DNA of 64,000 bases from an uncultured Candidatus Saccharibacteria bacterium (GCA_964469335.1 CAYXYK010000002.1:189549-253548); one strand, 5' to 3'. Positions 46,620 to 57,808 are shown, numbered from the stretch's first letter. A program made the numbers and translations. The notes: generated from the letters alone by a model not told the origin.

Positions 46620-47684
46620 TTACGGTGCTTCCTTGTACTTGCGCTCGGGATCGTACTTCAGTTCAGTGACCCGGCGCACTTCACGACCATCCGGTAGTTT
46701 GAGCTGCTTGAACTGTGCCACCAGGTCGATCTGCTGAAGGATCAGATGTCGCAAATATTCATCGGTGTAGTTCACACTGCAGTCGGGATGTTGGCGCATG
46801 CGTGCCATCAACATCATGATCGCTCCATCGGCACTCTTGCCGTGAATGGTAGTGACCGCACCGGGGTGATCGGATCCAGTGCTCATCGCGTAGTCCCATG
46901 CTTCTGCACCGCGCAGCTCACCGAGGATGATCCGATCGGGGATCATCCGCAGCGACCCTTTCAACAGCTCAGTCATACCGATTGCGCTTTCTCCGCCATC
47001 AGTCTCGTACTTGAGATGCACATGGTTCGGTTGGCTCGGAAATCTAATCTCCCGCGCATCTTCCATCGAGATCAGACGTTCGCGTGGATCAATCAAGCTG
47101 AGTACCGCGTTCTGCAGTGTCGTTTTGCCGGAACCGGTCGCTCCGCTCAAGAGCATGGTAGTCTTTTCCTTGACCGCGAGTGGGAAAAATCGCTTTACCA
47201 GTCTTCTACCTTCTTCGACTCTTCCTTCGGCAAATGCTTTCTCGAACGCACGACTGAGTCCCAGAAGTTCTTCTTCGTGAGGACGAAGTGATGTAGGGGC
47301 ATCGCAGACCATGTCGAACAGTCCGTCGTCGGTGAGTTCGTCAAAGGTCCTGAACTTCGAGGAGGGTTTGCGGATCGCGAATGCCATAGTGTCGTTGTCG
47401 CAACTGGGCGGCTGAACGATGTACACTCGCTCCCCGGTCGGCAAGATCGCTGAGAGAAGAGACTTTTCGGTATCGAGCTTCCGGCGATTTTTCGCAGCGA
47501 TGTAGCGCGCGAGCTCTTTGCACTCGGCGAAAGTGAGCTCTGGCTTCTTGATCTCCGGCTGCCAGCCCATGTGGGTCTTAATGAACACCGAACCAGGCTG
47601 ATTGATACAGATGTCGGTGACATCGGCCCGACCGAGCTCCACCTTGAGGTGCTTCTCGAGACTCATTTCAAGGAGTTCACTCAT
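46620..47684 (-). CDS. virB11: Type IV secretion ATPase VirB11/TrbB
   Basis: Walker A LLSGATGSGKTT, Asp/His boxes and GELRGAEA; 354 aa. Confidence 0.85.
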   Translation of the reverse strand: MSELLEMSLEKHLKVELGRADVTDICINQPGSVFIKTHMGWQPEIKKPELTFAECKELARYIAAKNRRKLDTEKSLLSAILPTGERVYIVQPPSCDNDTMAFAIRKPSSKFRTFDELTDDGLFDMVCDAPTSLRPHEEELLGLSRAFEKAFAEGRVEEGRRLVKRFFPLAVKEKTTMLLSGATGSGKTTLQNAVLSLIDPRERLISMEDAREIRFPSQPNHVHLKYETDGGESAIGMTELLKGSLRMIPDRIILGELRGAEAWDYAMSTGSDHPGAVTTIHGKSADGAIMMLMARMRQHPDCSVNYTDEYLRHLILQQIDLVAQFKQLKLPDGREVRRVTELKYDPERKYKEAP

Positions 47685-47687
47685 GAT

Positions 47688-48809
47688 TCACTCCTTACTA
47701 CGCAGTCGATAGGCGTTGGAAAAGTCGAGGTCTTGCATGGCAATGATCGAAAGCCGTGCTCCTTGTTCCCTGGTAAGGACCGGGGGGATATCCTTGTACT
47801 GATCCAATACCTTTCCAGCTGTGTCGCGTGTCGCGTTGGCGCTATTGCCGAGCACCACGGTGGCACCTGAGCCAGTACCGTTTCCGCTTTTGTTGCTGAT
47901 CCCGACACTGAGGCTGTCGAGGAGCGCAAAGGCGAGCCCCGGGAGGAGTCGCTTCATGAAGCGTGCATCAACATGCCCTTCGATGCCTGGCTCACCGAGC
48001 TCGCTGGTGAACTGGGAACCAAGATCGATGAGGACGTGATCCGGTGTTTCAGCCCGTGCTGCAAGTGCGAACAACCGCTCTTGCCCGAGTGGCAGTGCGC
48101 CGACTTGATTACCGACGATCTTGGTGCCCCTTGGGAGGAGCACCATCTTCTTGTCAGCGCCATAGACATCAGTCGCAAGATCACAGGTGATCTGCCCAGG
48201 CACTTCGCTGTTGATCCGTACCTTTGAGAAACAGTCACCAAGTGGCGTACCTCGCGTGATGGTGTAGGTCGGATTGCGCATCACAGCCGCAAGCGCACCT
48301 GAAGGCTGTGTCGGCTTCATGCTGCCACCGAGACCACCGTCGCCGGAAGTGACGCCTCCGCCGCCGTTCGTCAGAACGGATGGCGATGACATGCGATCGG
48401 CATTCGGATTGCGTGGCTTCGGTGGGTCGACCTGGGTCGGGGCATATGACTTGTCGGCATTCGGGACCACGACGCCAATCGGCTGCGGGGTTGGGGTCGC
48501 CTCCTTCACCACTGGGATCGGCGGAGGAGGTGGCTTAAGGTCTTCCGGAAGATTCGCATCGAGACGTCGTTGAGTGGTCTGGATCTCTGGTTCCTTCTGT
48601 TGATGTTGGGGGCGATACCAGAACATGTAGTAGCAGAACGCCGTCACCAACAGGACGAAGATCGGGATCGCCAGCTTGAGGCGATCGTTGTGTTGTGCAC
48701 GAATGAGTGCGTCGGGACCGGAACGGTCGCCCGGGATCTCGACGTCATGCGATTCGACGTCGACGGGTTCCTCACGATTCCGCGAGGTCCTTCTTCGTTG
48801 AGCAGACAT
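47688..48809 (-). CDS. virB10: VirB10/TrbI-family T4SS protein
   Basis: N-terminal TM helix, a Pro-rich linker (PPPPPIPV...) and a C-terminal TrbI beta-barrel domain (GTKIVGNQVGALPLGQERLF...). Confidence 0.8.
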   Translation of the reverse strand: MSAQRRRTSRNREEPVDVESHDVEIPGDRSGPDALIRAQHNDRLKLAIPIFVLLVTAFCYYMFWYRPQHQQKEPEIQTTQRRLDANLPEDLKPPPPPIPVVKEATPTPQPIGVVVPNADKSYAPTQVDPPKPRNPNADRMSSPSVLTNGGGGVTSGDGGLGGSMKPTQPSGALAAVMRNPTYTITRGTPLGDCFSKVRINSEVPGQITCDLATDVYGADKKMVLLPRGTKIVGNQVGALPLGQERLFALAARAETPDHVLIDLGSQFTSELGEPGIEGHVDARFMKRLLPGLAFALLDSLSVGISNKSGNGTGSGATVVLGNSANATRDTAGKVLDQYKDIPPVLTREQGARLSIIAMQDLDFSNAYRLRSKE

Positions 48810-48912
48810 GTCACTCTCCTTTCGAGATGGTTGATGTGGCAGTGGTCAATCGAGACCTAGCCGTGGCCGAACGGTCGGCAAAGCGAGAAAACAGTGTAGA
48901 CATAACACGATT

Positions 48913-48996
48913 CTCCTTATTTCTGAACATAAAAAAGAACTCGTCTAGTTGGTACCTAGCCGAGTTCATCCTATCGAAATGTCCGGAATGTGCAAG
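48913..48996 (-). repeat. Copy R1 of a ~85-bp repeated module: -35/-10-like hexamers, terminator-like hairpin and AAGGAG
   Basis: Minus strand reads TTGCAC-16 nt-TAGGAT, GAACTCGG(loop)CGAGTTC, T6, ATGTTC..AAATAAGGAG. It fills the trbL-virB10 gap and is closely similar to R2 and R3. Confidence 0.7.
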
Positions 48997-49000
48997 CAAT

Positions 49001-50209
49001 TCAATCGTCGGGAACGAAGTCGATGCCGTTGTCGTGGTGGTCATCTTTGTCGTTACTTTTGTGGTCTTTGTCATAGCTGCGTTGTTGCGCAACATGATGT
49101 TTAACCGCCGATTCTGAGGAGTCAACATTGCTCGGGTCACGCGATGAGCGTCTAGAGCCTTCTCGTGCGGCACGTGCACGTGCCGCGGGGTCCCCTCTCT
49201 GTGCTCGACGTTCAGCGCGCGATGCCTGGGAAGCAGCTGCTCCGCTCCACGCCCTCTGCGCGGCTCCTCCGATTGCACCACCGACACCTGCTGCTGCTGC
49301 TCCAAGCCATCCCGCTCCGGTGGCAGCTGCAGTCTTTGCAGCGCCTCCAAGTGGACGGAAGACGTTCTTGTTCGCAGTTCCGAGTACGTTGGGTGTGATC
49401 AGATGCCAACCTCCAGCGACGCCACGAGTGATGAACTCGATCTGTCGAATGATGAGGTATGCAACGACACCGTTGAAGATCGCGGGCAAGAGTGCGGTCC
49501 AGCCATTCGACACATCTCCCTTGGCTGCTACGAGGCCTGCGATCCACATCGCGAACAAGAGATTTACTGCGATCCCGAGGAACAGAAACATCAGTACGTA
49601 GTTGAGTAGTTGTGTCACCCACCCCTCTGCGAGCTTCACTCCCCACGGGAACGCGAACAACCCTAGAAATAGCACTCCTGACGCAAGCAGCACACCGATG
49701 GCGAACTTGGTAAGCAGGATCAGTGCTGCCGAGATCGCACAGATGATCACAGTCCCCAACAGGACGATGAGTGCAGTGAGGTAGAGACCCAAGGCATCGG
49801 CAGGCTTCCATCCCGTCGCAAGATTCTTGAACGATACGGCGAGCTCGACTCCTTTGTCGAGGGCATCATCAATGACCATGTTGGGTGCTTTGGTCGCACC
49901 CTGGGTCATGACTGAGACCAGTTCACCGGGGATCGCGTAGATCGGGCCTGCCAAGACGGTACTGAACACCCCTGCTGCGAATGCAAGATAGACACAGAAG
50001 CCGACTTTGCACATCTTCCACAGCAAGGTCTCGATCGGGGTATGGATCACCCCGCGTGCGACTCCTATGCCGAACATCACGAACGAAAAGCCGAGCAATG
50101 TCGTGAACGGTCCGATCAGCGCTTTTGCAAGCGAGGACGCGCCGTATGCGACGAAGCCGACGATCGCTGTGTCGACGTAGTTGAAATAGTCACTGACAAG
50201 TGTTGACAT
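49001..50209 (-). CDS. trbL: VirB6/TrbL-family T4SS inner-membrane protein
   Basis: Polytopic membrane protein with the TrbL topology and a Gly/Ala-rich, then charged, C-terminal extension. Confidence 0.8.
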   Translation of the reverse strand: MSTLVSDYFNYVDTAIVGFVAYGASSLAKALIGPFTTLLGFSFVMFGIGVARGVIHTPIETLLWKMCKVGFCVYLAFAAGVFSTVLAGPIYAIPGELVSVMTQGATKAPNMVIDDALDKGVELAVSFKNLATGWKPADALGLYLTALIVLLGTVIICAISAALILLTKFAIGVLLASGVLFLGLFAFPWGVKLAEGWVTQLLNYVLMFLFLGIAVNLLFAMWIAGLVAAKGDVSNGWTALLPAIFNGVVAYLIIRQIEFITRGVAGGWHLITPNVLGTANKNVFRPLGGAAKTAAATGAGWLGAAAAGVGGAIGGAAQRAWSGAAASQASRAERRAQRGDPAARARAAREGSRRSSRDPSNVDSSESAVKHHVAQQRSYDKDHKSNDKDDHHDNGIDFVPDD

Positions 50210-50245
50210 CGTAGTTCTCCTTTCAGATGATCAGAGTGCTCGAGG

Positions 50246-50647
50246 TCAACGACCTTCTGCCTTTCTGTAGATAACTTTCGGAACGCTTGCGCTCTCTGCC
50301 GGAAAAAACGTCCGCGGTGCCGAGGCTGCTTTCGCATCTTCAAGCGCCGCATCTATGGTTGCCGTACTTTCACGACTCAGCTCTTCGATCTTCCTTAGAG
50401 TTGCATCCTTGTGGATGACGAACTTAGGCGCATTCCATTTTGGGAGCTCTGTGGGGAAACTGAAATATCCAACCATGATGAATGCAAGTCCGAGCAGCAC
50501 CATCACGGTTGCGAACAGTCGTCCTTGGGTATAGCGCGTGTTGCTGTGTCGGAGTGGAGCACCCTTGTCGCCATCGATCTCGATGATTCGCTCTCCCCCA
50601 TCCACACCAGTCGGTGTGGATGGGGATTCTTCACTGGTCGAGGTCAT
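50246..50647 (-). CDS. Small T4SS-associated membrane protein (133 aa, unknown family)
   Basis: Single TM helix, a GAGGAAG RBS, overlap with the trbG stop, and position between trbG and trbL. Confidence 0.5.
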   Translation of the reverse strand: MTSTSEESPSTPTGVDGGERIIEIDGDKGAPLRHSNTRYTQGRLFATVMVLLGLAFIMVGYFSFPTELPKWNAPKFVIHKDATLRKIEELSRESTATIDAALEDAKAASAPRTFFPAESASVPKVIYRKAEGR

Positions 50648-51498
50648 TTTGGCTTCCTCACTTCCTTTTCTGTGCCTGGGACCGAAGTCCCTGGGTAACT
50701 CACCGGGAGTGTTCGCTCGAGCGGATCCTCTCTTCGGATCACGGTCGCATATGCCATGCCTTTTCGGAGGACGAGGCGCATGACGACGCGCGGTACGACG
50801 ATGGTGTCGCCGTGCTGCACACTGGTGTCGACGCTGCTTTCGCTACCGTCGGCATTCCAGATGAAGACAACCGGGAGCTCTTGCTGTTTGTAGAAGCGCA
50901 AGAAGGTGAACGTGCCGTCGTCGTAGACTTCGGCGGGATCGTCTCCCTCAGTGTTCGGCATCGATTGCGCAGTGTAGCGGTAATTGCGCACTCGCGGGTC
51001 ATCGCTGTACCCTCGCAGATAGTTGAACCTCAGCACGTACGTCATCCCCTTCGCTTCGGCGGATGAGGCGATGCACTTGTTGACGCACTTGAGGGTGAAC
51101 AGGTAGGTACGCTTGTTGGTGATGATCACCGCGTTCGAGTCGACGTTCGACGGAAACGGCACATCGACTTCCTTGCCATCAGTTCCTTTCGTCTTCATAT
51201 CCCACTTGGGCTTGACCGTGAACTTGTTGCCAAGCTGACGGACTTCCCACGGCCCGATGAAACCGAGGCTCGACGACTTCTCGTCGATCACCTCGTCACC
51301 TTCGAGCTCCACGACCGTGATGAAACCGAAATACCCGTAGAGGGTCACGATCTTGTCGCGTTCGTAATTCTCGATGCGGATACGCGGATCTGACTTCGGC
51401 ACGTAGGGAGGTGGGGGTTTCTCTCCAGCTGCGTAAGCGGCAGAGAGGACGAGCGTGGCCAAGAGCGCCACGCAGATACGTTTGAGTAGATTACTCAT
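50644..51498 (-). CDS. virB9: VirB9/TrbG-family T4SS protein
   Basis: Signal peptide plus the two beta-sandwich domains characteristic of VirB9/CagX (YGYFGFITVVELEG...; TFLRFYKQQELPVVFIWNADGSE). Confidence 0.8.
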   Translation of the reverse strand: MSNLLKRICVALLATLVLSAAYAAGEKPPPPYVPKSDPRIRIENYERDKIVTLYGYFGFITVVELEGDEVIDEKSSSLGFIGPWEVRQLGNKFTVKPKWDMKTKGTDGKEVDVPFPSNVDSNAVIITNKRTYLFTLKCVNKCIASSAEAKGMTYVLRFNYLRGYSDDPRVRNYRYTAQSMPNTEGDDPAEVYDDGTFTFLRFYKQQELPVVFIWNADGSESSVDTSVQHGDTIVVPRVVMRLVLRKGMAYATVIRREDPLERTLPVSYPGTSVPGTEKEVRKPK

Positions 51499-52259
51499 TT
51501 GACGTCTTCCTTGTCGGTTGTGTGGCGGACCACTTGCAGTCGGAATGGGTTGACCAAGTTAGCTTCTTCACCTTGTTTTGCATCCTCGGCGAAGTAGTAC
51601 TCGATGGTCGCAACCTTGCGGACCTTCTTCGGTTCGGGTTGGGCCAAGCTTTTCTCCTCCTGCACGTAGTGCACGGACATCATCTTGGTCTTCGCCTTCG
51701 GGTCGGAAAGTACTGTCGGTTGCATATACAAGAACTCGAGCTTGATGTAGCCGGTTCCTTCTTCACCACCGTGAGTCGCGTACATCCCTTCTGGGTTGTC
51801 GTACTTGAAGTCTTTCACGAGAGAGTCGAGTGTTGGCCCGGCTTCGGCGAAGTATTTGCAGGTCTTGAACTGAATCTGGTGCCGTGATTGGTGATACTCC
51901 TCACGGCACTTGACCCATTGCCAAATGAACGAGTTGGTCGCGAGGTTGCGATACGTGCGATCGAAGTCCTTGATCGCGGTCACGTGGTCGACGACACCTT
52001 TCGAGTCGACGGTCATCAATATCGGTTGGGGTGCTTCCTTGAGACGGATCTCATAGAACGCGCTCATCGACGATATGACGGCGATCACGAACATGCCGAT
52101 TGCGACCCTGATGCTGATGCGCATCTTGTAGACCAAGAGCGCAATGACGCTGCGTTCGTGACTGTTGGCCGAGTTGAAGTACTTGAGTAGGTCGTCTGTC
52201 CCGACCGGCTGTTTTGCCGGTTCGACACTGACGTGCTTACGCCTGAAGAAACTGAACAT
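51495..52259 (-). CDS. virB8: VirB8/TrbF-family T4SS protein
   Basis: N-terminal TM helix plus an NTF2-like periplasmic domain; the size and motif pattern fit TrbF. Confidence 0.75.
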   Translation of the reverse strand: MFSFFRRKHVSVEPAKQPVGTDDLLKYFNSANSHERSVIALLVYKMRISIRVAIGMFVIAVISSMSAFYEIRLKEAPQPILMTVDSKGVVDHVTAIKDFDRTYRNLATNSFIWQWVKCREEYHQSRHQIQFKTCKYFAEAGPTLDSLVKDFKYDNPEGMYATHGGEEGTGYIKLEFLYMQPTVLSDPKAKTKMMSVHYVQEEKSLAQPEPKKVRKVATIEYYFAEDAKQGEEANLVNPFRLQVVRHTTDKEDVK

Positions 52260-52298
52260 GACGATCTCCTTGTCTAAAAAGTATGGTGCCGAGGCACA

Positions 52299-52469
52299 TT
52301 ACTTTTTCGCGGACACAGACGCTGCTGGGGTTACCGATTTCGGCGGTACCGGGCGCTTGTCGAGGTTGAGTTTGCGCTCCGGACCAGTCGGATAGGGAGC
52401 CTTCGGTGGCGTCGTGCATGCAGTGCACAAAGCGAACACGATCGAGGCAAAAACAAACTGTTTGCACAT
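52299..52469 (-). CDS. Small lipoprotein (VirB7/TrbH-like position), 56 aa
   Basis: MCKQFVFASIVFALCTAC TTPPKAPYPTGPERK...: a signal peptide with a Cys lipobox-like site. AAGGAG lies 9 nt upstream of ATG 52469. The track's N-terminal extension runs across repeat R2 and is rejected. Confidence 0.55.
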   Translation of the reverse strand: MCKQFVFASIVFALCTACTTPPKAPYPTGPERKLNLDKRPVPPKSVTPAASVSAKK

Positions 52470-52478
52470 GATTGCACA

Positions 52479-52560
52479 CTCCTTATTTGAGAACATAATA
52501 AAGAACTCGTCTAGAAACTCTACCAAGTTAATCCTAGCGAAATGAGGGAATTGTGCAAGC
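52479..52560 (-). repeat. Copy R2 of the repeated promoter/hairpin/RBS module
   Basis: Minus strand reads TTGCAC-16-TAGGAT, AACTTGG(loop)CGAGTTC (the stem is kept via a G-U pair), TTTATT, ATGTTCTCAAATAAGGAG, then the lipoprotein ATG. Confidence 0.7.
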
Positions 52561-52765
52561 AAATCTGCCCTGAAATGGGGTTTTCAGAAATAGATGAAAA
52601 TTGAGGATACAAGGAAGCAACACTTCCTTGTTGTGCGCCTCCTATTTTAATGATGCTTACGACTAGAAGCAGTGGAAAAGTCCGCTTTTCATTTAAAATT
52701 CCATAAAAAGGCCCTCCGTCCCAGAAACTGGGAGGAGGGGGCGTTTCTTTCGACCATGTAGGTCC

Positions 52766-53500
52766 TTACTTGCCGTAGACGACCTTTGGGGCCGGTCGTT
52801 GATCCATCTTCATCAGCATGTCGGATTGCATCTGGACGAGCTGTTCTTGACTGGCCCGATTGGCTTCGGCGAGCGCGTAGAGTCGGATCTGCTCGTTAAG
52901 GAGCATGTTCTGCTGAGCCTGGATACGGGCCTGCAGTTCGCCGATCGACTTGGCATCGTCGGTCGTGCCGATGGCTTCGACCAATTGCTTGTTGGTCTTC
53001 ACCCGATTCACGGCAGCAGTTTGCGCGGCATCACTGGTTGCGCGCATCCCTGCGAGTTGGTTGACCCGCTCTTTCCAGATCCGTGCGGACTCGGTACCCA
53101 TGTCGCCGCCGAAGGTGTCATTGGTCAGGCTGGTGACTTCGCCACGCAGACGTTCGACCACTTTGGCGAGCCGTGCAGATTCGCCGACTGCATCACGCGC
53201 ACCGATCATGCTGGCGCGGGCATCGGGAGGAAGGTAGTCGAAATTCGAGTTCTCGAACTCGCCCATCAAGAGCTTCTCGAAGCCGCGCTTGCCGGTGACT
53301 TGCTCGTACATCTGCTTGGCCTGCTGGAGCTGCTTGATCAGCGTCTCGTACTGCTTGATGTATTCGGCCATCGCCTTGGCTGCCTCGGCAATACGCAGCA
53401 CGTTCGAAGGGGCATCGTGTACCGGCCAGACCGCCAGCGAACTGGTGACAGCGGCGAAGAACAATGCGACAGCCAATGCGAAGTTTCGCAATTTGAACAT
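52766..53500 (-). CDS. trbJ: TrbJ/VirB5-family T4SS protein
   Basis: Signal peptide and a long coiled-coil helical protein of 244 aa. AAGGAG lies 7 nt upstream of the ATG. Confidence 0.7.
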   Translation of the reverse strand: MFKLRNFALAVALFFAAVTSSLAVWPVHDAPSNVLRIAEAAKAMAEYIKQYETLIKQLQQAKQMYEQVTGKRGFEKLLMGEFENSNFDYLPPDARASMIGARDAVGESARLAKVVERLRGEVTSLTNDTFGGDMGTESARIWKERVNQLAGMRATSDAAQTAAVNRVKTNKQLVEAIGTTDDAKSIGELQARIQAQQNMLLNEQIRLYALAEANRASQEQLVQMQSDMLMKMDQRPAPKVVYGK

Positions 53501-53506
53501 GACGAT

Positions 53507-53590
53507 CTCCTTGAAAACATGAAAAAAAGAACTCGGTTTGGGGTTTAGCCAACACCGAGTTCATGTTATCGAATGCGTCAAAATGTGCAA
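53507..53590 (-). repeat. Copy R3 of the repeated promoter/hairpin/RBS module
   Basis: Minus strand reads TTGCAC-16-TAACAT, GAACTCGGTGTTGG(loop)CCAAACCGAGTTC, T7, CATGTTTTCAAGGAG, then the trbJ ATG. Confidence 0.7.
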
Positions 53591-53626
53591 GTTGCTTGAT
53601 CGGAGGTTTTCGTGTTACCGAATCCC

Positions 53627-56038
53627 TCAGCCTTTCTTCTTTCTCCTACGATGGAAGATCGGAAGCCACAGTTCGGGATCGGAACCGACATCTGCGATGA
53701 TCTCTTCGACAAGGAGTGTGTGCTCCGCGGACGATGACAGCACTGCGAGATCGTCATCCATGCCGGCAAGGTCGAGCAATACCACTCCTGAGACATCACC
53801 CTGCTTGATGAACACAAGGTGCGAATTGAGCGGTAGCGACTTTATGGTCATGAACTCCGCCTCACTGAGCTCGAACCCGTTCACGTACTCCTTCATCTTG
53901 GCCGACGGATTGGGCAGGAAGACCTTGGTGGCGAAACCGTCGATGATGGTCGGAAAGATGACGCTCCCCACGGCATCAGCTGCGCTCTGTGTCGCGACGA
54001 TGAAGAACCAGTTCTGACTCCGAGTCGTCTTCGTGCGCTTCTTGAACTCCGTAACGAAGAACTCATCGTCAAGCGCGCGCCAGAACTCATCGATGATGGT
54101 GAACATTCTCCCCTGCCCGATCAAGAGCTGCATGCGGTAGAAGAGGTACATCATCAGCGGCTGACGGATACCCTTGTTCTCGATGAACTGCGTCATGTCG
54201 AAGCCGGTCAATTGGTCCGGACGAAAATCGATGCCATCAACTTCGTTGTCGAACAACCACGCCTTCGATCCTTCACCGAACCACTGCGACAGTCGCTGTC
54301 CAAGTTGTTCATCGATGTTGATCGATTCGGACAACTTGTTGATCCGACGCGATGCCTTCGGCAACCTGAACACCGAGGTGATCGCGTCGCCGAGTTGCAT
54401 GCTCTCCTTGACCGTGAGCGGGGGGCCACCGTCATCTTCGAGCATGCTCTGAAGCAGCACCTTGAGGAACTCGATGTTTTCGGAAGTCCCATCGAGCTGG
54501 AACGGATTGAAGCCGGTCTTTTCGCCGTTTTTCAAGACGAAGTAGTCGCCCTTCGCCGCACGGATACCGATCTCCATCCCGCGCTTGTAATCGAACACGA
54601 TCCCTTTGGCAGCGAACTGCTTCAGGTGCAAAGCGAGGAAGGTCAGAAACACCGTCTTCCCTGAGCCGATGGGGCCGACCACGAGCGCATTGCCGACATC
54701 CGCGACGTGGAAGTTGTAGTCGTACGGATCGCCTGACGCGGTCCGCAGCATCGCCACGGATTCGCCCCAGTGATTCCCCGAGCGCTTGCCACGCATGTAG
54801 CGGTGGAAGGACGTGAGCCCACACCAGTTGAGGCTGGTGATCGGCACTTGGCGCGGATTGAGCTTCATGTTGCCCGGCAGTTGTGACCACCAGGCTGCCG
54901 CGAGTCCGAGCCATTCACGCTTCGCAATGAATCCGCCATCAGAGAGCACTCCGCGGGCCTTCGCGAGGTTGAGATTCACCTCCTCGGCATTCGCACCCTT
55001 CACAACGAGTGAGCCGTGATACATGCCCATGTCGAACTTGCGAGCAGTGAGGTCGTTGAGCGCGCCACCTTCGCCGCGTCGGGTGATCTCCTCGACTTGC
55101 GAGCCGGCATCGTCTTCGGTCTGCTCCAGGTGGATACCGTAGAGTTTCATCATCTTCTTCGCCTTCTCACGCGGAAGTAGTGCGAACGATTGCGTGAAGA
55201 CGAACTCGAACGGAAGCGCCAACAGATCATCGAGATGCCCAGGGCCTGAACTCATCGGGTATTCTTCGATGCCGAGTGCGGCGACATAGACTGAATCGTC
55301 TCCGTGGATGACACCGAGCGTATGACGGAAGATGGGTCGTGCCGCGAGCAAGGTGTCGCAGATGTTGTCGTGGGTAAGCGGCACCCGTTGATCGAAACCG
55401 TTGGCGATGTAGTGATACAGCTCGAGCTGTTCAGAAAAGACGTTGCCATTGAGGTCGTAGGTCGTGAGTGACTGAAGCTTGAAGTGCTTGAGGCCGGCCT
55501 CGAGTGCACGAGTCACTTCGTCGAAGTCTTCGAGTGCGATTGCGTCTTCTTCTTGTAGCTGGGCAGGGGTCATCTTGCTCGAACGTGCCGATAAGGGGCC
55601 GACACCACCATCGCTCATGCGATAGACGACCGAGAGGTAGTGTGTGCTCTCGTGAAGCTGGATGTCCGCCAGGTTCTCCGCATATCGACGATTGAGATCA
55701 TCAGGGTAACCCGGTTCGAACTTCCTCCGTGGTGATTCACCCGAACGCCGACGCAAGAGATGCGTATAGAATGTCAGCCTGCCATCAGCGATGCCGTTCA
55801 CCACACGTATAGTGTGGTTGAGCGCGTTGTGGAATGCATTCAACATGTCATCCTCAACACATTCGAATGGAACTCCGGTGACGTAGTAGGTGCGGACGAA
55901 GTCGCCTTCTTGAGTCCGAATGGTGCGGTCATCGACCAGTACCTGGAACGGGATATCCTTGTCTGCGGATATCTCGTATCGCTCGAGCACAGCCGGTGAT
56001 GGCGTGCGTAAGAGCAGTCCTTGCAGAAGTGCACTCAT
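53627..56038 (-). CDS. virB4: Type IV secretion ATPase VirB4/TrbE
   Basis: 803 aa; Walker A VVGPIGSGKTVF, Walker B MFTIIDEFW and the VirB4 C-terminal motifs. Confidence 0.9.
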   Translation of the reverse strand: MSALLQGLLLRTPSPAVLERYEISADKDIPFQVLVDDRTIRTQEGDFVRTYYVTGVPFECVEDDMLNAFHNALNHTIRVVNGIADGRLTFYTHLLRRRSGESPRRKFEPGYPDDLNRRYAENLADIQLHESTHYLSVVYRMSDGGVGPLSARSSKMTPAQLQEEDAIALEDFDEVTRALEAGLKHFKLQSLTTYDLNGNVFSEQLELYHYIANGFDQRVPLTHDNICDTLLAARPIFRHTLGVIHGDDSVYVAALGIEEYPMSSGPGHLDDLLALPFEFVFTQSFALLPREKAKKMMKLYGIHLEQTEDDAGSQVEEITRRGEGGALNDLTARKFDMGMYHGSLVVKGANAEEVNLNLAKARGVLSDGGFIAKREWLGLAAAWWSQLPGNMKLNPRQVPITSLNWCGLTSFHRYMRGKRSGNHWGESVAMLRTASGDPYDYNFHVADVGNALVVGPIGSGKTVFLTFLALHLKQFAAKGIVFDYKRGMEIGIRAAKGDYFVLKNGEKTGFNPFQLDGTSENIEFLKVLLQSMLEDDGGPPLTVKESMQLGDAITSVFRLPKASRRINKLSESINIDEQLGQRLSQWFGEGSKAWLFDNEVDGIDFRPDQLTGFDMTQFIENKGIRQPLMMYLFYRMQLLIGQGRMFTIIDEFWRALDDEFFVTEFKKRTKTTRSQNWFFIVATQSAADAVGSVIFPTIIDGFATKVFLPNPSAKMKEYVNGFELSEAEFMTIKSLPLNSHLVFIKQGDVSGVVLLDLAGMDDDLAVLSSSAEHTLLVEEIIADVGSDPELWLPIFHRRRKKKG

Positions 56039-56093
56039 GGCAATCTCCTTGTTGAGTGGAAATGAAAAGTGGGGAGCGATTGCTCCCCACCGT

Positions 56094-56423
56094 TTACTTG
56101 CGTAGCTTGCGCTGCCGCATCATGGGCGAGCGTGTGTCACCTTTCCAGTACAGCCGCAGTCGTAGCGGACAACGCCCACCGGTGATGATCCACAAGTAGA
56201 GCATCCGATAGATGCGCCGATCGAACTTCTCGATCACAAGACTGAGCCCGATCAGTACGAAGAACAGCACGATGCCGTAGAACGGGTTCGGAAACAGCCA
56301 GCCGAGAAAACCGAGCGTCAGTGCCGCGATGATCATCGACGAGATGAACGCTCCATACGAAACGCCCATCATTGTTGCCGATCTGGTGAAGCCGACGTAG
56401 AGGGTGTCTTCTTGGAGCGCCAT
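56094..56423 (-). CDS. virB3: VirB3/TrbD-family T4SS protein
   Basis: ~109 aa after the start-site correction (MALQEDTLYVGFTRSATMMGVSYGAFISSM...), with two TM helices. Confidence 0.7.
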   Translation of the reverse strand: MALQEDTLYVGFTRSATMMGVSYGAFISSMIIAALTLGFLGWLFPNPFYGIVLFFVLIGLSLVIEKFDRRIYRMLYLWIITGGRCPLRLRLYWKGDTRSPMMRQRKLRK

Positions 56424-56424
56424 T

Positions 56425-56745
56425 TCAGCCCGCTCCGAGCGAGACCGCTTGGTTCGCAAGCCAGGTTGCGGCGCCGACGATGACACCGCCGCCGAGGATC
56501 AGGAAGAAGAAGCCCTTCGACATGTGGCCGGTCCAGAGGAGGAGACCACCGAGTGCGAGGCCGAACGCCAGGATCGGGATGATCACCTCGGGAGGCAGCA
56601 TGTTCGCGAAGAACTTCGAGAGTCGGTTGATGAACGGCGTGTTGCTCTGGGCAGCGGCACTCTCGCTCACGAAGATGAGCGCAGCACAGACGAGGCTGGC
56701 GTAGAACTGCGAGGATCGTTGCTTGAGTTGGGCAGTTGTGGTCAT
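56425..56745 (-). CDS. virB2: VirB2/TrbC-family pilin-like protein
   Basis: Long signal/leader followed by two hydrophobic helices (IIPILAFGLALGGLLLW...FFFLILGGGVIVGAATWL). GGAG RBS. The start was corrected from the track ORF. Confidence 0.65.
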   Translation of the reverse strand: MTTTAQLKQRSSQFYASLVCAALIFVSESAAAQSNTPFINRLSKFFANMLPPEVIIPILAFGLALGGLLLWTGHMSKGFFFLILGGGVIVGAATWLANQAVSLGAG

Positions 56746-56891
56746 GAGATTTGCTCCGTTGGTTGAGTGAAGAGAAAAGACGGACCAGAAGGAAGGTTGT
56801 TTCATGTCAGCACCTCATAAGGTTGAACGTTGCAGAAAATTACATGCTCATGCGTTTGCCCTTTCTGAGGCACGTGAACAGACTGATTCGA

Positions 56892-57572
56892 TCATCCGCT
56901 ATAGCGTTTGGGGACAGCGATGTACACTTTCCCCGCATAACCATTCGCGATTCCTCTCGAGAAGTTGCCTGCGTTGTAGCACGACAGTGCGGCTGCGAGC
57001 ACTCGCTGTTTCTCGTCATAGCTGAGCATGTGCTCACTCCGACGATACAGTTTCTGTGCTGCAGGTTTGTAGCACCAATCGACCAATACGATCTCGGCAA
57101 CGCGCAAGTTACTGCACGTGTCGAACAGGTCTTCGAGCGTGACGCCTAGCTTGGCGAGATTATTCGAATTGACTTGCGCCGCTCCGACATCGATGGAGAA
57201 GCCCTTGAGCTTCCCGTAGGTGTCGAGCAGATACTTCGCAGTCACGACCGCTTCCGCTTTCGTGCGCGGTGGATGCTTGAGACGCCACTTGCCGTAGTTG
57301 ATGCCTATCGCATAGGCATTCCATCTCGACTCAGTGTAGGTCAATTGATCCATCGTCTTCATTCCGATGCGTGGTGCGCAGGTACTCATCAGCTCTGATG
57401 TATTCTGCACAACTCCACCAGGGAGTATGCGAGCAGACACATAAGCACGCGGAGGAGAACCCTCACTTCCATTTGCTGGTTTCGTGAACGACAGAGAGAC
57501 GGCGAGAGCCAACATGACGAACCGCGCGTTCGCATGCATACTCTTTTGGAGTGCAGAGAACACAGCGGCCAT
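56892..57572 (-). CDS. virB1: VirB1/TrbN-like lytic transglycosylase
   Basis: SLT-like motifs (YTESRWNAYAIGINYG, DVGAAQVNSNN, AEIVL) and a signal peptide. Start at ATG 57572 with AAGGA upstream. Confidence 0.7.
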   Translation of the reverse strand: MAAVFSALQKSMHANARFVMLALAVSLSFTKPANGSEGSPPRAYVSARILPGGVVQNTSELMSTCAPRIGMKTMDQLTYTESRWNAYAIGINYGKWRLKHPPRTKAEAVVTAKYLLDTYGKLKGFSIDVGAAQVNSNNLAKLGVTLEDLFDTCSNLRVAEIVLVDWCYKPAAQKLYRRSEHMLSYDEKQRVLAAALSCYNAGNFSRGIANGYAGKVYIAVPKRYSG

Positions 57573-57808
57573 ATGTTTCCTTTCGACTAAATTTCCGGAA
57601 TAGTCCGTGGGCAATGCGTCGTGTGCACATTTGACAAAGAACTACAGCTAGTTTCCTATTCCCAGTCTAATCACAGGGATTCATTAGTAAAGTTGACATA
57701 TTATAAATATGTTTTATCGACTATCCACAAGCTGACTCACTCGCTCAGGAGAGCATTTCTGGATGAAAAACCCGCACCAGATGTTGGCGCGGGTGAACGA
57801 AATACATG

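What the first reader, a model, noticed from the sequence alone, without database searches (positions are those of the whole stretch)
48913..53590. Three copies of an ~85-bp promoter, terminator-like hairpin and RBS module inside the T4SS operon
The intergenic gaps trbL>virB10 (48913..48996), virB7-like>upstream (52479..52560) and virB4>trbJ (53507..53590) carry near-identical sequence on the coding (minus) strand: TTGCAC-16 nt-TAGGAT/TAACAT, a GC hairpin GAACTCGG...CCGAGTTC, a T6-7 tract, ATGTTC and AAGGAG. Each copy places sigma70-like hexamers upstream of an intrinsic-terminator-like hairpin that would lie at the 5' end of the transcript. In copy 2 the stem is kept by a T-to-G (G-U) change, which points to RNA-level rather than DNA-operator conservation. 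This looks like a repeated attenuator or processing module, or a repeated terminator/promoter unit partitioning the operon. I do not recognise it from described Trb/VirB loci.
Basis: seen in the sequence. Interest (0 to 1): 0.7.

Follow-up and report, generated by a model that had tools for sequence, protein, structure and literature searches.

The report
Repeated promoter-terminator cassette in T4SS cluster
Three conserved copies of a roughly 85-base cassette, made of a promoter, a terminator hairpin that starts right after it and a ribosome-binding site, probably split a secretion-system gene cluster of an ultrasmall (CPR) bacterium into separately started transcripts; the parts are ordinary, but their fixed overlap and triplication are unusual.

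Summary
Three minus-strand intergenic cassettes (48913-48995, 52479-52558, 53507-53590) share TTGCAC, a 16-nt spacer, TAnnAT, an abutting hairpin, a T-run, AAGGAG and ATG. A profile built only from other lineages finds exactly these three in the 64 kb (E 7e-17 to 4e-12; next forward-strand hit 0.35).

Syntenic T4SS loci with 54-90% VirB4 identity carry the cassette at the same three junctions. Against the closest of them the cassettes are 89-97% identical. virB4 third codon positions are 64% identical and the flanking spacers 58-70%.

The best reading is an overlapping terminator-promoter unit. The hairpin starts at the first base after the -10 box, so a transcript started there would lack most of the 5' arm and escape termination, while read-through from upstream would form the full hairpin. 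Copies 1 and 3 fold at -14 to -18 kcal/mol and carry 7-8 U. Copy 2 sits behind trbJ's own strong terminator, and there the hairpin has decayed while the promoter boxes stay intact.

No transcript ends were mapped. This is a new variant of known kinds (terminator-promoter overlaps, repeated promoter modules) and of moderate interest.

The parts
53507..53590 (-). Cassette copy 3, between virB4 and trbJ/virB5. -35 TTGCAC 53585-53590; -10 TAACAT 53563-53568; hairpin GAACTCGGT...ACCGAGTTC 53529-53562; T7 53522-53528; SD AAGGAG 53507-53512; trbJ ATG 53498-53500.
   Evidence: Hairpin -16.0 kcal/mol with 7 U. R1 74.9 bits. Independent HMM E 1.2e-14.
52479..52558 (-). Cassette copy 2, upstream of the VirB7-like lipoprotein gene. 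-35 TTGCAC 52553-52558; -10 TAGGAT 52531-52536; weak hairpin TAACTTGG...CGAGTTC 52503-52530; TTTATT 52497-52502; SD 52479-52484; ATG 52467-52469.
   Evidence: Hairpin only -5.9 kcal/mol. R1 77.8 bits. HMM E 4.1e-12.
48913..48995 (-). Cassette copy 1, starting 5 nt after the trbL/virB6 stop codon. -35 TTGCAC 48990-48995; -10 TAGGAT 48968-48973; hairpin GAACTCG-G-CTAG...CTAG-A-CGAGTTC 48937-48967; T6 48931-48936; SD 48913-48918; ATG 48901-48903 of a 30-codon ORF that ends at the virB10 start.
   Evidence: Hairpin -13.9 kcal/mol with 7 U in the first 8 tail bases. R1 88.6 bits. HMM E 7e-17.
52705..52741 (-). trbJ's own strong terminator-like hairpin (CCCCCTCCTCCCAG-TTT-CTGGGACGGAGGG plus T5), about 150 nt upstream of copy 2. 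A second hairpin lies near 52610-52635.
   Evidence: An equivalent terminator follows trbJ in L020, L006 and L008.
56068..56091 (-). Conserved hairpin plus U-run between virB3 and virB4 with no promoter box. Probably an in-line partial terminator.
   Evidence: The stem differs by paired changes in L006, L008 and L009.
46552..46577 (-). Terminator-like hairpin after virB11, at the end of the cluster.
53627..56805 (-). virB2 (56425-56805), virB3 (56094-56423) and virB4 (53627-56038). These form the unit that would end at copy 3.
   Evidence: Pfam TrbC, VirB3, CagE_TrbE_VirB.
52766..53500 (-). trbJ/virB5-like gene, served by copy 3.
   Evidence: Pfam PF07996.
49001..52469 (-). Unit served by copy 2: VirB7-like lipoprotein (52299-52469), virB8 (51495-52259), virB9 (50644-51498), a 133-aa ORF (50246-50647) and trbL/virB6 (49001-50209).
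   Evidence: Pfam VirB8, CagX, TrbL. Lipoprotein translation.
46620..48903 (-). Unit served by copy 1: the 30-codon ORF (48811-48903), virB10 (47688-48809) and virB11 (46620-47684).
   Evidence: Pfam TrbI, T2SSE. ORF comparison.

Best explanation
Each cassette is a compact, overlapping terminator-promoter-RBS unit.

- **Promoter.** A sigma70-type promoter (TTGCAC, 16 nt, TAnnAT) sits directly against an intrinsic-terminator hairpin and U-run.
- **Incoming polymerases.** Those arriving from the upstream gene (virB4 for copy 3, trbL/virB6 for copy 1) transcribe both arms, form the hairpin and stop at the U-run.
- **Polymerases started at the cassette.** These begin at the invariant GG at the inner end of the 5' arm. 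Their RNA lacks the outer stem, so they pass the U-run and read the downstream genes. The U-rich leader and the AAGGAG box then drive translation.
- **Resulting units.** The cluster would be expressed as virB1?-B2-B3-B4 | virB5 | virB7-B8-B9-x-B6 | (30-aa ORF)-B10-B11. The last three units would start from near-identical promoters.

Shown: the anatomy, the triplication, orthologous conservation under purifying selection, hairpin energies, and hairpin decay where a separate terminator exists.

Inferred: promoter activity, the start site, the efficiency of termination, and escape of the cassette's own transcripts.
For: 1. **Promoter-like conservation.** Across 14 distinct copies from 5 lineages the -35 to -10 spacing is always 16 nt. 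The -10 box varies only at positions 3-4 (TAGGAT, TAACAT, TAAGAT, TATCAT), and the spacer sequence varies. Other likely promoters in this genome, for example upstream of the tRNA genes, are of the same TTGnnn-16/17-TAnnnT type.
2. **Terminator-grade hairpins.** Copies 1 and 3 fold at -13.9 to -17.8 kcal/mol with 7-8 U directly after the stem, and the T-run lies on the coding strand only. The inner stem differs between copies while pairing is kept: columns 41-58 switch CG/UA and columns 43-56 switch AU/UA/GC. The arm spacing is 14, 17 or 20 nt.
3. **Decay in copy 2 only.** The copy-2 hairpin is weak or lost (-0.2 to -7.4 kcal/mol). In all four lineages trbJ has its own strong terminator upstream of it. 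The promoter boxes of copy 2 remain intact.
4. **Fixed overlap.** The hairpin begins at the first base after the -10 box in every copy. GG at positions 7-8 after the -10 box is invariant even where it is unpaired. RNA truncated at that point keeps only -0.2 to -7 kcal/mol, and the remaining stem ends 6-8 nt before the U-run. The duplicated-hairpin variant L008_c3 behaves the same way.
5. **Purifying selection.** Window against L020: cassettes 89-97% identical, virB4 third codon positions 64%, flanking spacers 58-70%. Orthologous copies cluster together, so the triplication is old.
6. **Compact junctions.** Only 5 nt separate the trbL stop codon from the -35 box of copy 1.
7. **Precedent.** Interoperon terminator-promoter overlaps are documented in Salmonella (PMC6735719).
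Against: - No transcript 5' or 3' ends are available.
- The hexamers match the E. coli consensus poorly (TTGCAC 3 of 6, TAGGAT 4 of 6), and neither the promoters nor the hairpins were flagged by the simple consensus scan.
- The virB3|virB4 hairpin (-24 kcal/mol) has no promoter after it, yet virB4 must be expressed. Strong hairpins in this cluster are therefore not necessarily full stops.
- The arm sequences GAACTCGG and CGAGTTC are conserved more strongly than pairing requires.
- AGTTCTTT and GAAAACGG persist in copy-2 orthologues that have lost the hairpin. This could point to a sequence-specific factor.
- The promoter-before-terminator order with zero spacing remains unexplained except by compactness.
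Confidence: 0.55

Rival explanations
1. Promoter plus leader attenuator. Transcription starts early enough to include the whole hairpin. Most transcripts then stop at the U-run unless a trans-acting antiterminator or RNA-binding factor intervenes, which would co-regulate three T4SS units.
For: - The promoter-then-hairpin order is the order seen in leader attenuators.
- The arm sequence is conserved beyond what pairing needs, and AGTTCTTT is invariant.
- Three identical leaders would give coordinated control.
Against: - The 5' arm starts at the first base after the -10 hexamer in 14 of 14 copies, so a sigma70-type start 6-9 nt downstream cannot include it.
- The copy-2 hairpin is dispensable in three lineages while its promoter is kept.
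- No alternative antiterminator fold is conserved.
- No regulator gene lies in or next to the cluster.
- No Rfam family matches.
Confidence: 0.12
2. Promoter plus DNA operator. The inverted repeat GAACTCGG/CCGAGTTC, overlapping the transcription start, is the binding site of a repressor that switches the three units together. This would resemble the repeated operator-promoter units of conjugative plasmids.
For: - The outer arms are conserved in sequence across paralogues and lineages.
- Their position over the start site is a classic repressor position.
- Half-site-like remnants persist in copy-2 orthologues.
- Repeated promoter-operator units are known in IncN CUP elements and in p576.
Against: - The distance between the arms varies (14, 17, 20 nt, and about 55 nt in L008_c3), which does not fit a fixed dimer geometry.
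- The interior keeps pairing with different sequences.
- A U-run follows the stem on the coding strand only.
- The hairpin decays exactly where another terminator exists.
- No HTH or RHH gene was found nearby.
Confidence: 0.12
3. There is no internal promoter. The cluster is one long transcript, and the hairpins are partial terminators or RNA-stability and processing signals that tune stoichiometry. The TTGCAC...TAnnAT box would then serve some other role.
For: - The virB3|virB4 hairpin shows that in-line hairpins without promoters exist in this cluster.
- The hexamers are weak by the E. coli consensus, and the scan did not flag them.
Against: - It does not explain the invariant 16-nt spacing, the TAnnAT variation pattern, or the 73% mean pairwise identity of the box.
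- It does not explain why copy 2 keeps the box after losing the hairpin and after a strong independent terminator.
Confidence: 0.12
4. A selfish or neutral small repeat (MITE-like, or a relic of rearrangement) with no function of its own.
For: - There are three paralogous copies.
- Two of them lie at junctions where the gene order differs from the canonical VirB order.
Against: - Only three copies exist, all in one orientation at gene starts. There are none in the other 51 kb of the window or in the collections scanned.
- There are no terminal inverted repeats or target duplications.
- The positions are orthologous, with 89-97% identity against 64% at silent sites.
Confidence: 0.04

Closest known systems
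[quoted passage not shown] 2019, PMC6735719)
   Same: The terminator of the upstream unit physically overlaps the promoter of the next. The overlaps are conserved over long evolutionary times and link neighbouring units that must stay collinear.
   Different: The Salmonella overlaps are unrelated in sequence to one another. Here three paralogous copies of one cassette are reused inside a single gene cluster, each with its RBS, with a fixed arrangement in which the -10 box abuts the stem. Function is untested here. The exact geometry of the Salmonella overlaps was in figures I could not read.
CUP (conserved upstream) repeats of IncN plasmids pKM101/R46, which are ArdK-controlled promoter regions (Delver and Belogurov 1997, as cited in PMC6289460)
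   Same: Repeated conserved upstream sequences carrying promoters in front of different genes of a conjugation-related element.
   Different: CUP elements are defined by a repressor (ArdK) binding site and lie in the leading region. Here no regulator is known, a terminator hairpin is part of the unit, the copies lie inside the T4SS structural genes, and there is no sequence similarity to plasmid DNA.
The four Reg576-repressed promoters of Bacillus plasmid p576 (Val-Calvo et al. 2018, PMC6294495)
   Same: Several similar promoters on a conjugative element give coordinated control.
   Different: These are defined by dual TTATCCC operator heptamers and an RHH repressor. Neither was found here.
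Promoter propagation / 'putative mobile promoters' (Matus-Garcia et al. 2012, PMC3488235)
   Same: Highly similar promoter-bearing intergenic sequences lie upstream of non-homologous genes within one genome.
   Different: That is a survey-level category based on sequence similarity. Here the unit also carries a terminator and an RBS, and it is old and orthologously fixed rather than recently spread.
Leader terminator/antiterminator attenuators (for example LicT/SacY RAT-terminator, PMC3575810)
   Same: A promoter is followed closely by a hairpin and a U-run.
   Different: Attenuators transcribe the complete terminator and have a competing antiterminator fold or a factor site. Here the 5' arm lies in the region between the -10 box and the start site, and no conserved alternative fold was seen.

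Membership tests
Intrinsic (Rho-independent) terminator | Stable G+C-containing stem-loop in the RNA of the coding strand | tested here: met
   Copies 1 and 3 and their orthologues fold at -13.9 to -17.8 kcal/mol (7-9 outer pairs plus 4-6 inner pairs). Copy 2 folds at -0.2 to -7.4, so it is not met there.
Intrinsic (Rho-independent) terminator | U-run directly after the stem, on one strand only | tested here: met
   7-8 U in the first 8 tail bases of copies 1 and 3. The opposite strand has no T-run. The simple scan did not list them, because the stem has an internal mismatch or bulge.
Intrinsic (Rho-independent) terminator | Pairing maintained by compensatory change | tested here: inconclusive
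   The outer 7 pairs are nearly invariant in sequence. Inner pairs 41-58 and 43-56 change on both sides. The covariation score is 0.217 against 0.118 in shuffles, but the copies are related.
Intrinsic (Rho-independent) terminator | RNA 3' ends at the U-run | not testable with these tools
   No transcript data.
Sigma70-type promoter | -35 and -10 hexamers 16-18 nt apart | tested here: met
   TTGCAC (TTGCGC or TTGCAT in three copies), 16 nt, TAnnAT in 14 of 14 copies. The match to the E. coli consensus is only 7 of 12 and was not flagged.
Sigma70-type promoter | Conservation pattern expected of a -10 element (T1, A2, T6 fixed; the middle free) | tested here: met
   TAGGAT, TAACAT, TAAGAT, TATCAT.
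Sigma70-type promoter | Primary 5' end 6-9 nt after the -10 box | not testable with these tools
   An invariant GG lies at positions 7-8 after the -10 box. This is only suggestive.
Terminator-promoter overlap (operon concatenation, PMC6735719) | Terminator of the upstream unit and promoter of the downstream unit share bases | tested here: met
   By prediction only. The 5' arm occupies the region from the -10 box to the start site; the -35 box of copy 1 lies 5 nt after the trbL stop codon.
Terminator-promoter overlap (operon concatenation, PMC6735719) | Functional coupling of the two units | not testable with these tools
   Needs expression measurements.
Repeated promoter-operator units (IncN CUP, p576) | Cognate repressor and its fixed-geometry binding site | tested here: not met
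   No regulator gene in or beside the cluster. Arm spacing is variable. No DNA similarity to plasmids.
Leader attenuator / riboswitch-like element | The whole terminator lies inside the transcript, with a conserved alternative fold or a known RNA family | tested here: not met
   The 5' arm abuts the -10 box. There is no Rfam match even at E<=1 and no shared alternative fold.
MITE or other mobile small repeat | Many dispersed copies, terminal inverted repeats, target duplications | tested here: not met
   Three copies only, in fixed orthologous sites. There are none elsewhere in the window or in the scanned collections.

The most novel reading that the evidence does not exclude
The cassette may be more than a passive insulator. 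One possibility is a start-site-gated switch read by an unknown factor that recognises GAACTCGG/CCGAGTTC and the invariant AGTTCTTT, as RNA or as DNA. The other is a device that hands polymerases released at the U-run back to the promoter 35-45 bp upstream, using the post-termination sliding and re-initiation seen in vitro (PMC6978380, PMC6978322). Either would couple three units of a horizontally acquired, diderm-type T4SS in a CPR episymbiont without any classical regulator.
Probability: 0.12. Interest if true: 0.6.

Novelty: new variant of a known kind. Interest (0 to 1): 0.38.

Why it matters
If the reading is right, a reduced-genome bacterium has rebuilt the transcription of an acquired 10-kb secretion machine with one reusable 85-base part. 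That part ends one message and starts the next within the same bases. This would be a natural example of a start-site-gated terminator, a compact insulator design of interest for synthetic biology. It would also give a handle on how CPR bacteria, whose promoters and terminators are almost unstudied, organise gene expression. In addition, it marks three candidate transcription starts to test in a rare diderm-type T4SS of Patescibacteria. If the cassettes are only ordinary promoters and terminators that happen to be similar, the finding is a useful annotation of operon structure and no more.

Tried and rejected
- **Rfam.** Gathering thresholds over the whole window, and E<=1 over 46-58 kb, gave nothing at the cassettes.
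- **Exact-pattern scans.** A 24-base degenerate pattern run against GTDB species genomes, JGI metagenomes and IMG/VR gave only chance hits inside coding DNA without hairpins (L016-L019), or none. The lineage could be reached only through protein-based contig look-ups.
- **Plasmid DNA.** No match to the cluster or to a cassette.
- **Other sigma readings, checked by eye against consensus sequences recalled from memory.** Sigma54: there is no GG 10 nt upstream of TTGCA. Sigma28: TCGATAA resembles GCCGATAA, but there is no TAAA at the required distance. ECF (GAAC...CGT): the spacing varies between copies.
- **A fourth diverged copy at the virB1-like promoter (about 57640-57690).** Some resemblance was seen by eye (TAGACT...GAAACTA-GCTG-TAGTTC-TTT), but neither R1 nor the HMM detects it, so it is not claimed.
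- **GTTCTTT as a separate motif.** It occurs 21 times against 10.3 +/- 3.1 expected, including after other terminators. This is suggestive and unresolved.
- **Pairing of the freed 3' arm and U-run with the SD in cassette-started leaders.** The predicted probability that the SD is paired is 0.6-0.99. Any U-run next to AAGGAG would give this, and the flanking UCG is not conserved, so no claim is made.
- **A promoter hidden before the virB3|virB4 hairpin.** None was seen.
- **Provenance.** An exact look-up of the window's SerRS found no record.

Full report
**1. Observation**

On the minus strand, three intergenic segments share one layout: CTTGCACA, 10 nt, TTCG, 1 nt, TAnnAT, (G/T)AACTYGG, a variable interior, CGAGTTC, a T-run, AAGGAG and ATG. 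Their coordinates run from the -35 box to the SD:

| Copy | Coordinates | Junction |
|---|---|---|
| 1 | 48913-48995 | trbL/virB6 to virB10 |
| 2 | 52479-52558 | upstream of the VirB7-like gene |
| 3 | 53507-53590 | virB4 to trbJ/virB5 |

- The generic repeat finder returns this as the top direct-repeat family of the 13-kb region.
- A covariance model of the cassette (R1) scores the three copies at 75-89 bits. Nothing else in the 64 kb exceeds 11 bits.
- To avoid circularity I built an HMM only from the orthologous copies of other lineages. It finds exactly the three window copies (E 7e-17, 1.2e-14, 4.1e-12). The only other hit below E 0.1 is the hairpin palindrome of copy 1 on the opposite strand (0.027), and the next is 0.35.

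**2. Context**

- *Gene content.* Pfam confirms a minus-strand T4SS cluster: virB1-like (weak SLT match), virB2, virB3, virB4, [copy 3], virB5/trbJ, [copy 2], a VirB7-like lipoprotein, virB8, virB9, a 133-aa ORF, virB6/trbL, [copy 1], a 30-codon ORF, virB10 and virB11.
- *Neighbours.* The cluster is flanked by housekeeping genes (metG, topA, serS, relA/spoT, AhpC, tRNAs). No regulator, relaxase or coupling protein was found next to it.
- *Host.* The nearest named relatives of its SerRS are Patescibacteria/Minisyncoccia at 71-73% identity.
- *Host promoters.* Likely promoters elsewhere in the window are of the ordinary TTGnnn, 16/17 nt, TAnnnT type.

**3. Relatives**

VirB4 homologues and exact-protein contig look-ups gave two groups of loci.

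- *Syntenic loci.* L001-L005 are 99% identical in VirB4, L020 90%, L006/L007 63%, L009/L010 64% and L008 54%. All have the same unusual gene order. Each carries the cassette at the same junctions: three per complete locus and never elsewhere.
- *More distant loci.* VirB loci with 39-44% VirB4 identity (L011, L012-L014, L015) are typical conjugative clusters with canonical gene order. They have tight gene spacing and no cassette.

Pattern scans of GTDB species genomes, JGI metagenomes and IMG/VR, and BLAST against plasmids, found no further copies.

**4. Selection**

Comparison of the window with L020:

| Region | Identity |
|---|---|
| Cassette copy 1 | 97% |
| Cassette copy 2 | 89% |
| Cassette copy 3 | 94% |
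| virB4 codon positions 1, 2, 3 | 93%, 95%, 64% |
| Spacers just outside the cassettes | 58-70% |

- Within the cassette, mean pairwise identity is 73% for the promoter part, 78% for the 5' arm and 87% for the 3' arm plus TTT. The hairpin interior is at 43% and the leader after the T-run at 51%.
- Orthologous copies resemble each other more than paralogous ones do. The triplication therefore predates the divergence of these lineages, and the copies are kept by purifying selection rather than by recent spread.

**5. Anatomy that bears on mechanism**

- *(a) Promoter.* The -35 to -10 spacing is 16 nt in 14 of 14 distinct copies. The -10 box varies only in its middle (TAGGAT, TAACAT, TAAGAT, TATCAT).
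- *(b) Hairpin.* It starts at the first base after the -10 box in every copy. The arms are 14, 17 or 20 nt apart, and their interiors differ in sequence but still pair. L008 copy 3 has a duplicated, much longer hairpin.
- *(c) Copies 1 and 3.* They fold at -13.9 to -17.8 kcal/mol and are followed by 7-8 U. These values are typical of intrinsic terminators.
- *(d) Copy 2.* It folds at only -5.9 and -7.4 kcal/mol in the window and L020, and at -0.2 to -3.4 in L006, L007 and L008, while its promoter boxes are intact. In all four lineages trbJ has its own strong terminator hairpin with a T-run between its stop codon and copy 2.
- *(e) The GG.* GG at positions 7-8 after the -10 box is invariant, even where the second G is unpaired.
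- *(f) Truncated RNA.* RNA beginning at that GG keeps only the small inner stem (-0.2 to -7 kcal/mol), which ends 6-8 nt before the U-run. In L008 copy 3 the truncated RNA refolds so that the stem again ends 6 nt short of the U-run.

**6. Interpretation**

These features fit an overlapping terminator-promoter unit.

- Polymerases coming from virB4 or virB6 make the whole hairpin and stop.
- Polymerases that start at the cassette begin inside the stem. This assumes that bacterial RNAP starts 6-9 nt after the -10 hexamer, which is established knowledge and was not mapped here. Such polymerases are therefore blind to the terminator.
- Where another terminator already protects the promoter (copy 2), the hairpin is free to decay, and it has decayed.
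- The order 'promoter first, terminator second' works only because of the zero spacing, which would explain why that spacing never varies.
- It also suits very short intergenic regions: the -35 box of copy 1 lies 5 nt after the trbL stop codon.

I put this at about 0.55.

**7. Rivals**

- *Leader attenuator (0.12).* This needs the complete stem in the transcript, which the geometry argues against. No conserved alternative fold or known RNA family was found.
- *DNA operator (0.12).* It is supported by the strong sequence conservation of the arms and by remnants in hairpin-less copy-2 orthologues. It is opposed by the variable arm spacing, the pairing interior, the one-sided U-run and the absence of a nearby regulator.
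- *No promoter, only in-line partial terminators or stabilisers (0.12).* The promoter-less conserved hairpin between virB3 and virB4 makes this plausible. It does not explain the conserved, fixed-spacing box, nor its survival in copy 2.
- *Selfish repeat (0.04).* It does not fit three fixed, oriented, selected copies.

**8. Unexplained residue**

- AGTTCTTT is invariant in all 14 copies, and GAAAACGG is kept in copy-2 orthologues without a hairpin.
- GTTCTTT is twice as frequent in the window as expected. It also follows the -10-like boxes of the virB1-like and Band7 genes and the virB11 terminator.
- In predicted cassette-started leaders the freed 3' arm and U-run tend to pair with the SD. 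A U-run beside AAGGAG would do this anyway.

**9. Comparison with what is known**

- Repeated promoter units on conjugative elements are also known: the IncN CUP repeats bound by ArdK (PMC6289460, citing Delver and Belogurov 1997), the four Reg576 promoters of p576 (PMC6294495), and generic 'promoter propagation' (PMC3488235).
- The cassette shares no sequence with these.
- It differs in three ways. It combines promoter, terminator and RBS in one reused unit. It has a fixed arrangement in which the -10 box abuts the stem. It sits inside the structural genes of a T4SS.
- I therefore rate it a new variant of known kinds, not a new category.

**10. Limits**

- There are no transcript data.
- Only one taxonomic marker was used.
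- Only 64 kb of the genome could be scanned.
- The relatives number five lineages, with non-independent paralogues, so the covariation statistics are weak.
- The hexamers match the E. coli consensus poorly and were not picked up by the simple scan.

Noticed in passing
window 46620-57614 (minus strand): The cluster is a complete diderm-type (MPF_T-like) VirB1-B11 set, including a VirB7-like lipoprotein, VirB9 and VirB10. It sits on a chromosome whose SerRS is closest to Patescibacteria/Minisyncoccia (71-73%). The cluster's GC is 0.52-0.57 against 0.45-0.51 for most of the rest of the window (the metG region at 40-42 kb also reaches 0.55). No coupling protein or relaxase was seen nearby. The AhpC, tRNA-Leu, Band7, T4SS synteny is shared with L008 (54% VirB4 identity), so the cluster is a long-term resident. 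A survey paper found MPF_T-type VirB4 in only 2 of 2,474 Patescibacteria VirB4 homologues (PMC12102498). An outer-membrane core complex in a supposedly monoderm-like CPR cell deserves its own look.
   Followed up: partly
window 49001-53500; L012, L015: The gene order is B4 | B5 | B7-B8-B9-x133-B6 | orf30-B10-B11, with virB6 moved behind virB9. Distant relatives keep the canonical order B5-B6-B7-B8-B9-B10. Two of the three cassettes lie at the junctions created by this rearrangement (B5|B7 and B6|B10).
   Followed up: partly
window 56068-56091 (minus): A strong hairpin plus U-run lies between virB3 and virB4 (-24 kcal/mol for the intergenic fold). It is conserved with paired changes in L006, L008, L009 and L020, and no promoter box follows it. 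It is probably a partial terminator setting the ratio of pilin to ATPase.
   Followed up: partly
window 57696-57712 (minus): A 17-bp palindrome ACATATT-TAT-AATATGT lies just upstream of the -35-like box of the virB1-like gene. It is conserved as ACATAT-N5-ATATGT in L008 and L020, and is a candidate operator for the first unit of the cluster. It also contains a perfect TATAAT.
   Followed up: no
window 48811-48903 (minus): A 30-codon ORF (MSTLFSRFADRSATARSRLTTATSTISKGE) uses the RBS of cassette copy 1 and ends 1 nt before the virB10 start codon (TGA-C-ATG). It is kept in frame in L020 (60% aa identity) but is absent in L006, where the region has no ATG. It may be a real micro-protein, a coupling ORF or a chance ORF.
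   Followed up: partly
window 52766-53500 and 56425-56805; L020: Between the window and L020, VirB2 (pilin) and VirB5/TrbJ are only 68% identical, and the 133-aa ORF 70%. VirB3, B4, B9 and B11 are 90-91% identical. The surface-exposed pilus parts are evolving much faster.
   Followed up: no
window 52253-52272 and 53494-53513: An exact 20-nt repeat CAAGGAGATCGTCATGTTCA (minus strand) forms the RBS and first codons of both trbJ and virB8. Other genes of the cluster have very similar CAAGGAGAnnGnCATG initiation regions.
   Followed up: no
window 50246-50647 (minus): A 133-aa ORF between virB9 and virB6 has no Pfam match. It is conserved in position in L006, L008 and L020 (29-70% identity).
   Followed up: no
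L008 7084-7188: In the L008 orthologue of copy 3 the hairpin arms are duplicated (AACTTGGT...ACCGAGT GAACTCGGT...ACCGAGTTC). This gives a -36.8 kcal/mol composite hairpin. The freed first 3' arm could act as an antiterminator in transcripts started at the cassette.
   Followed up: partly
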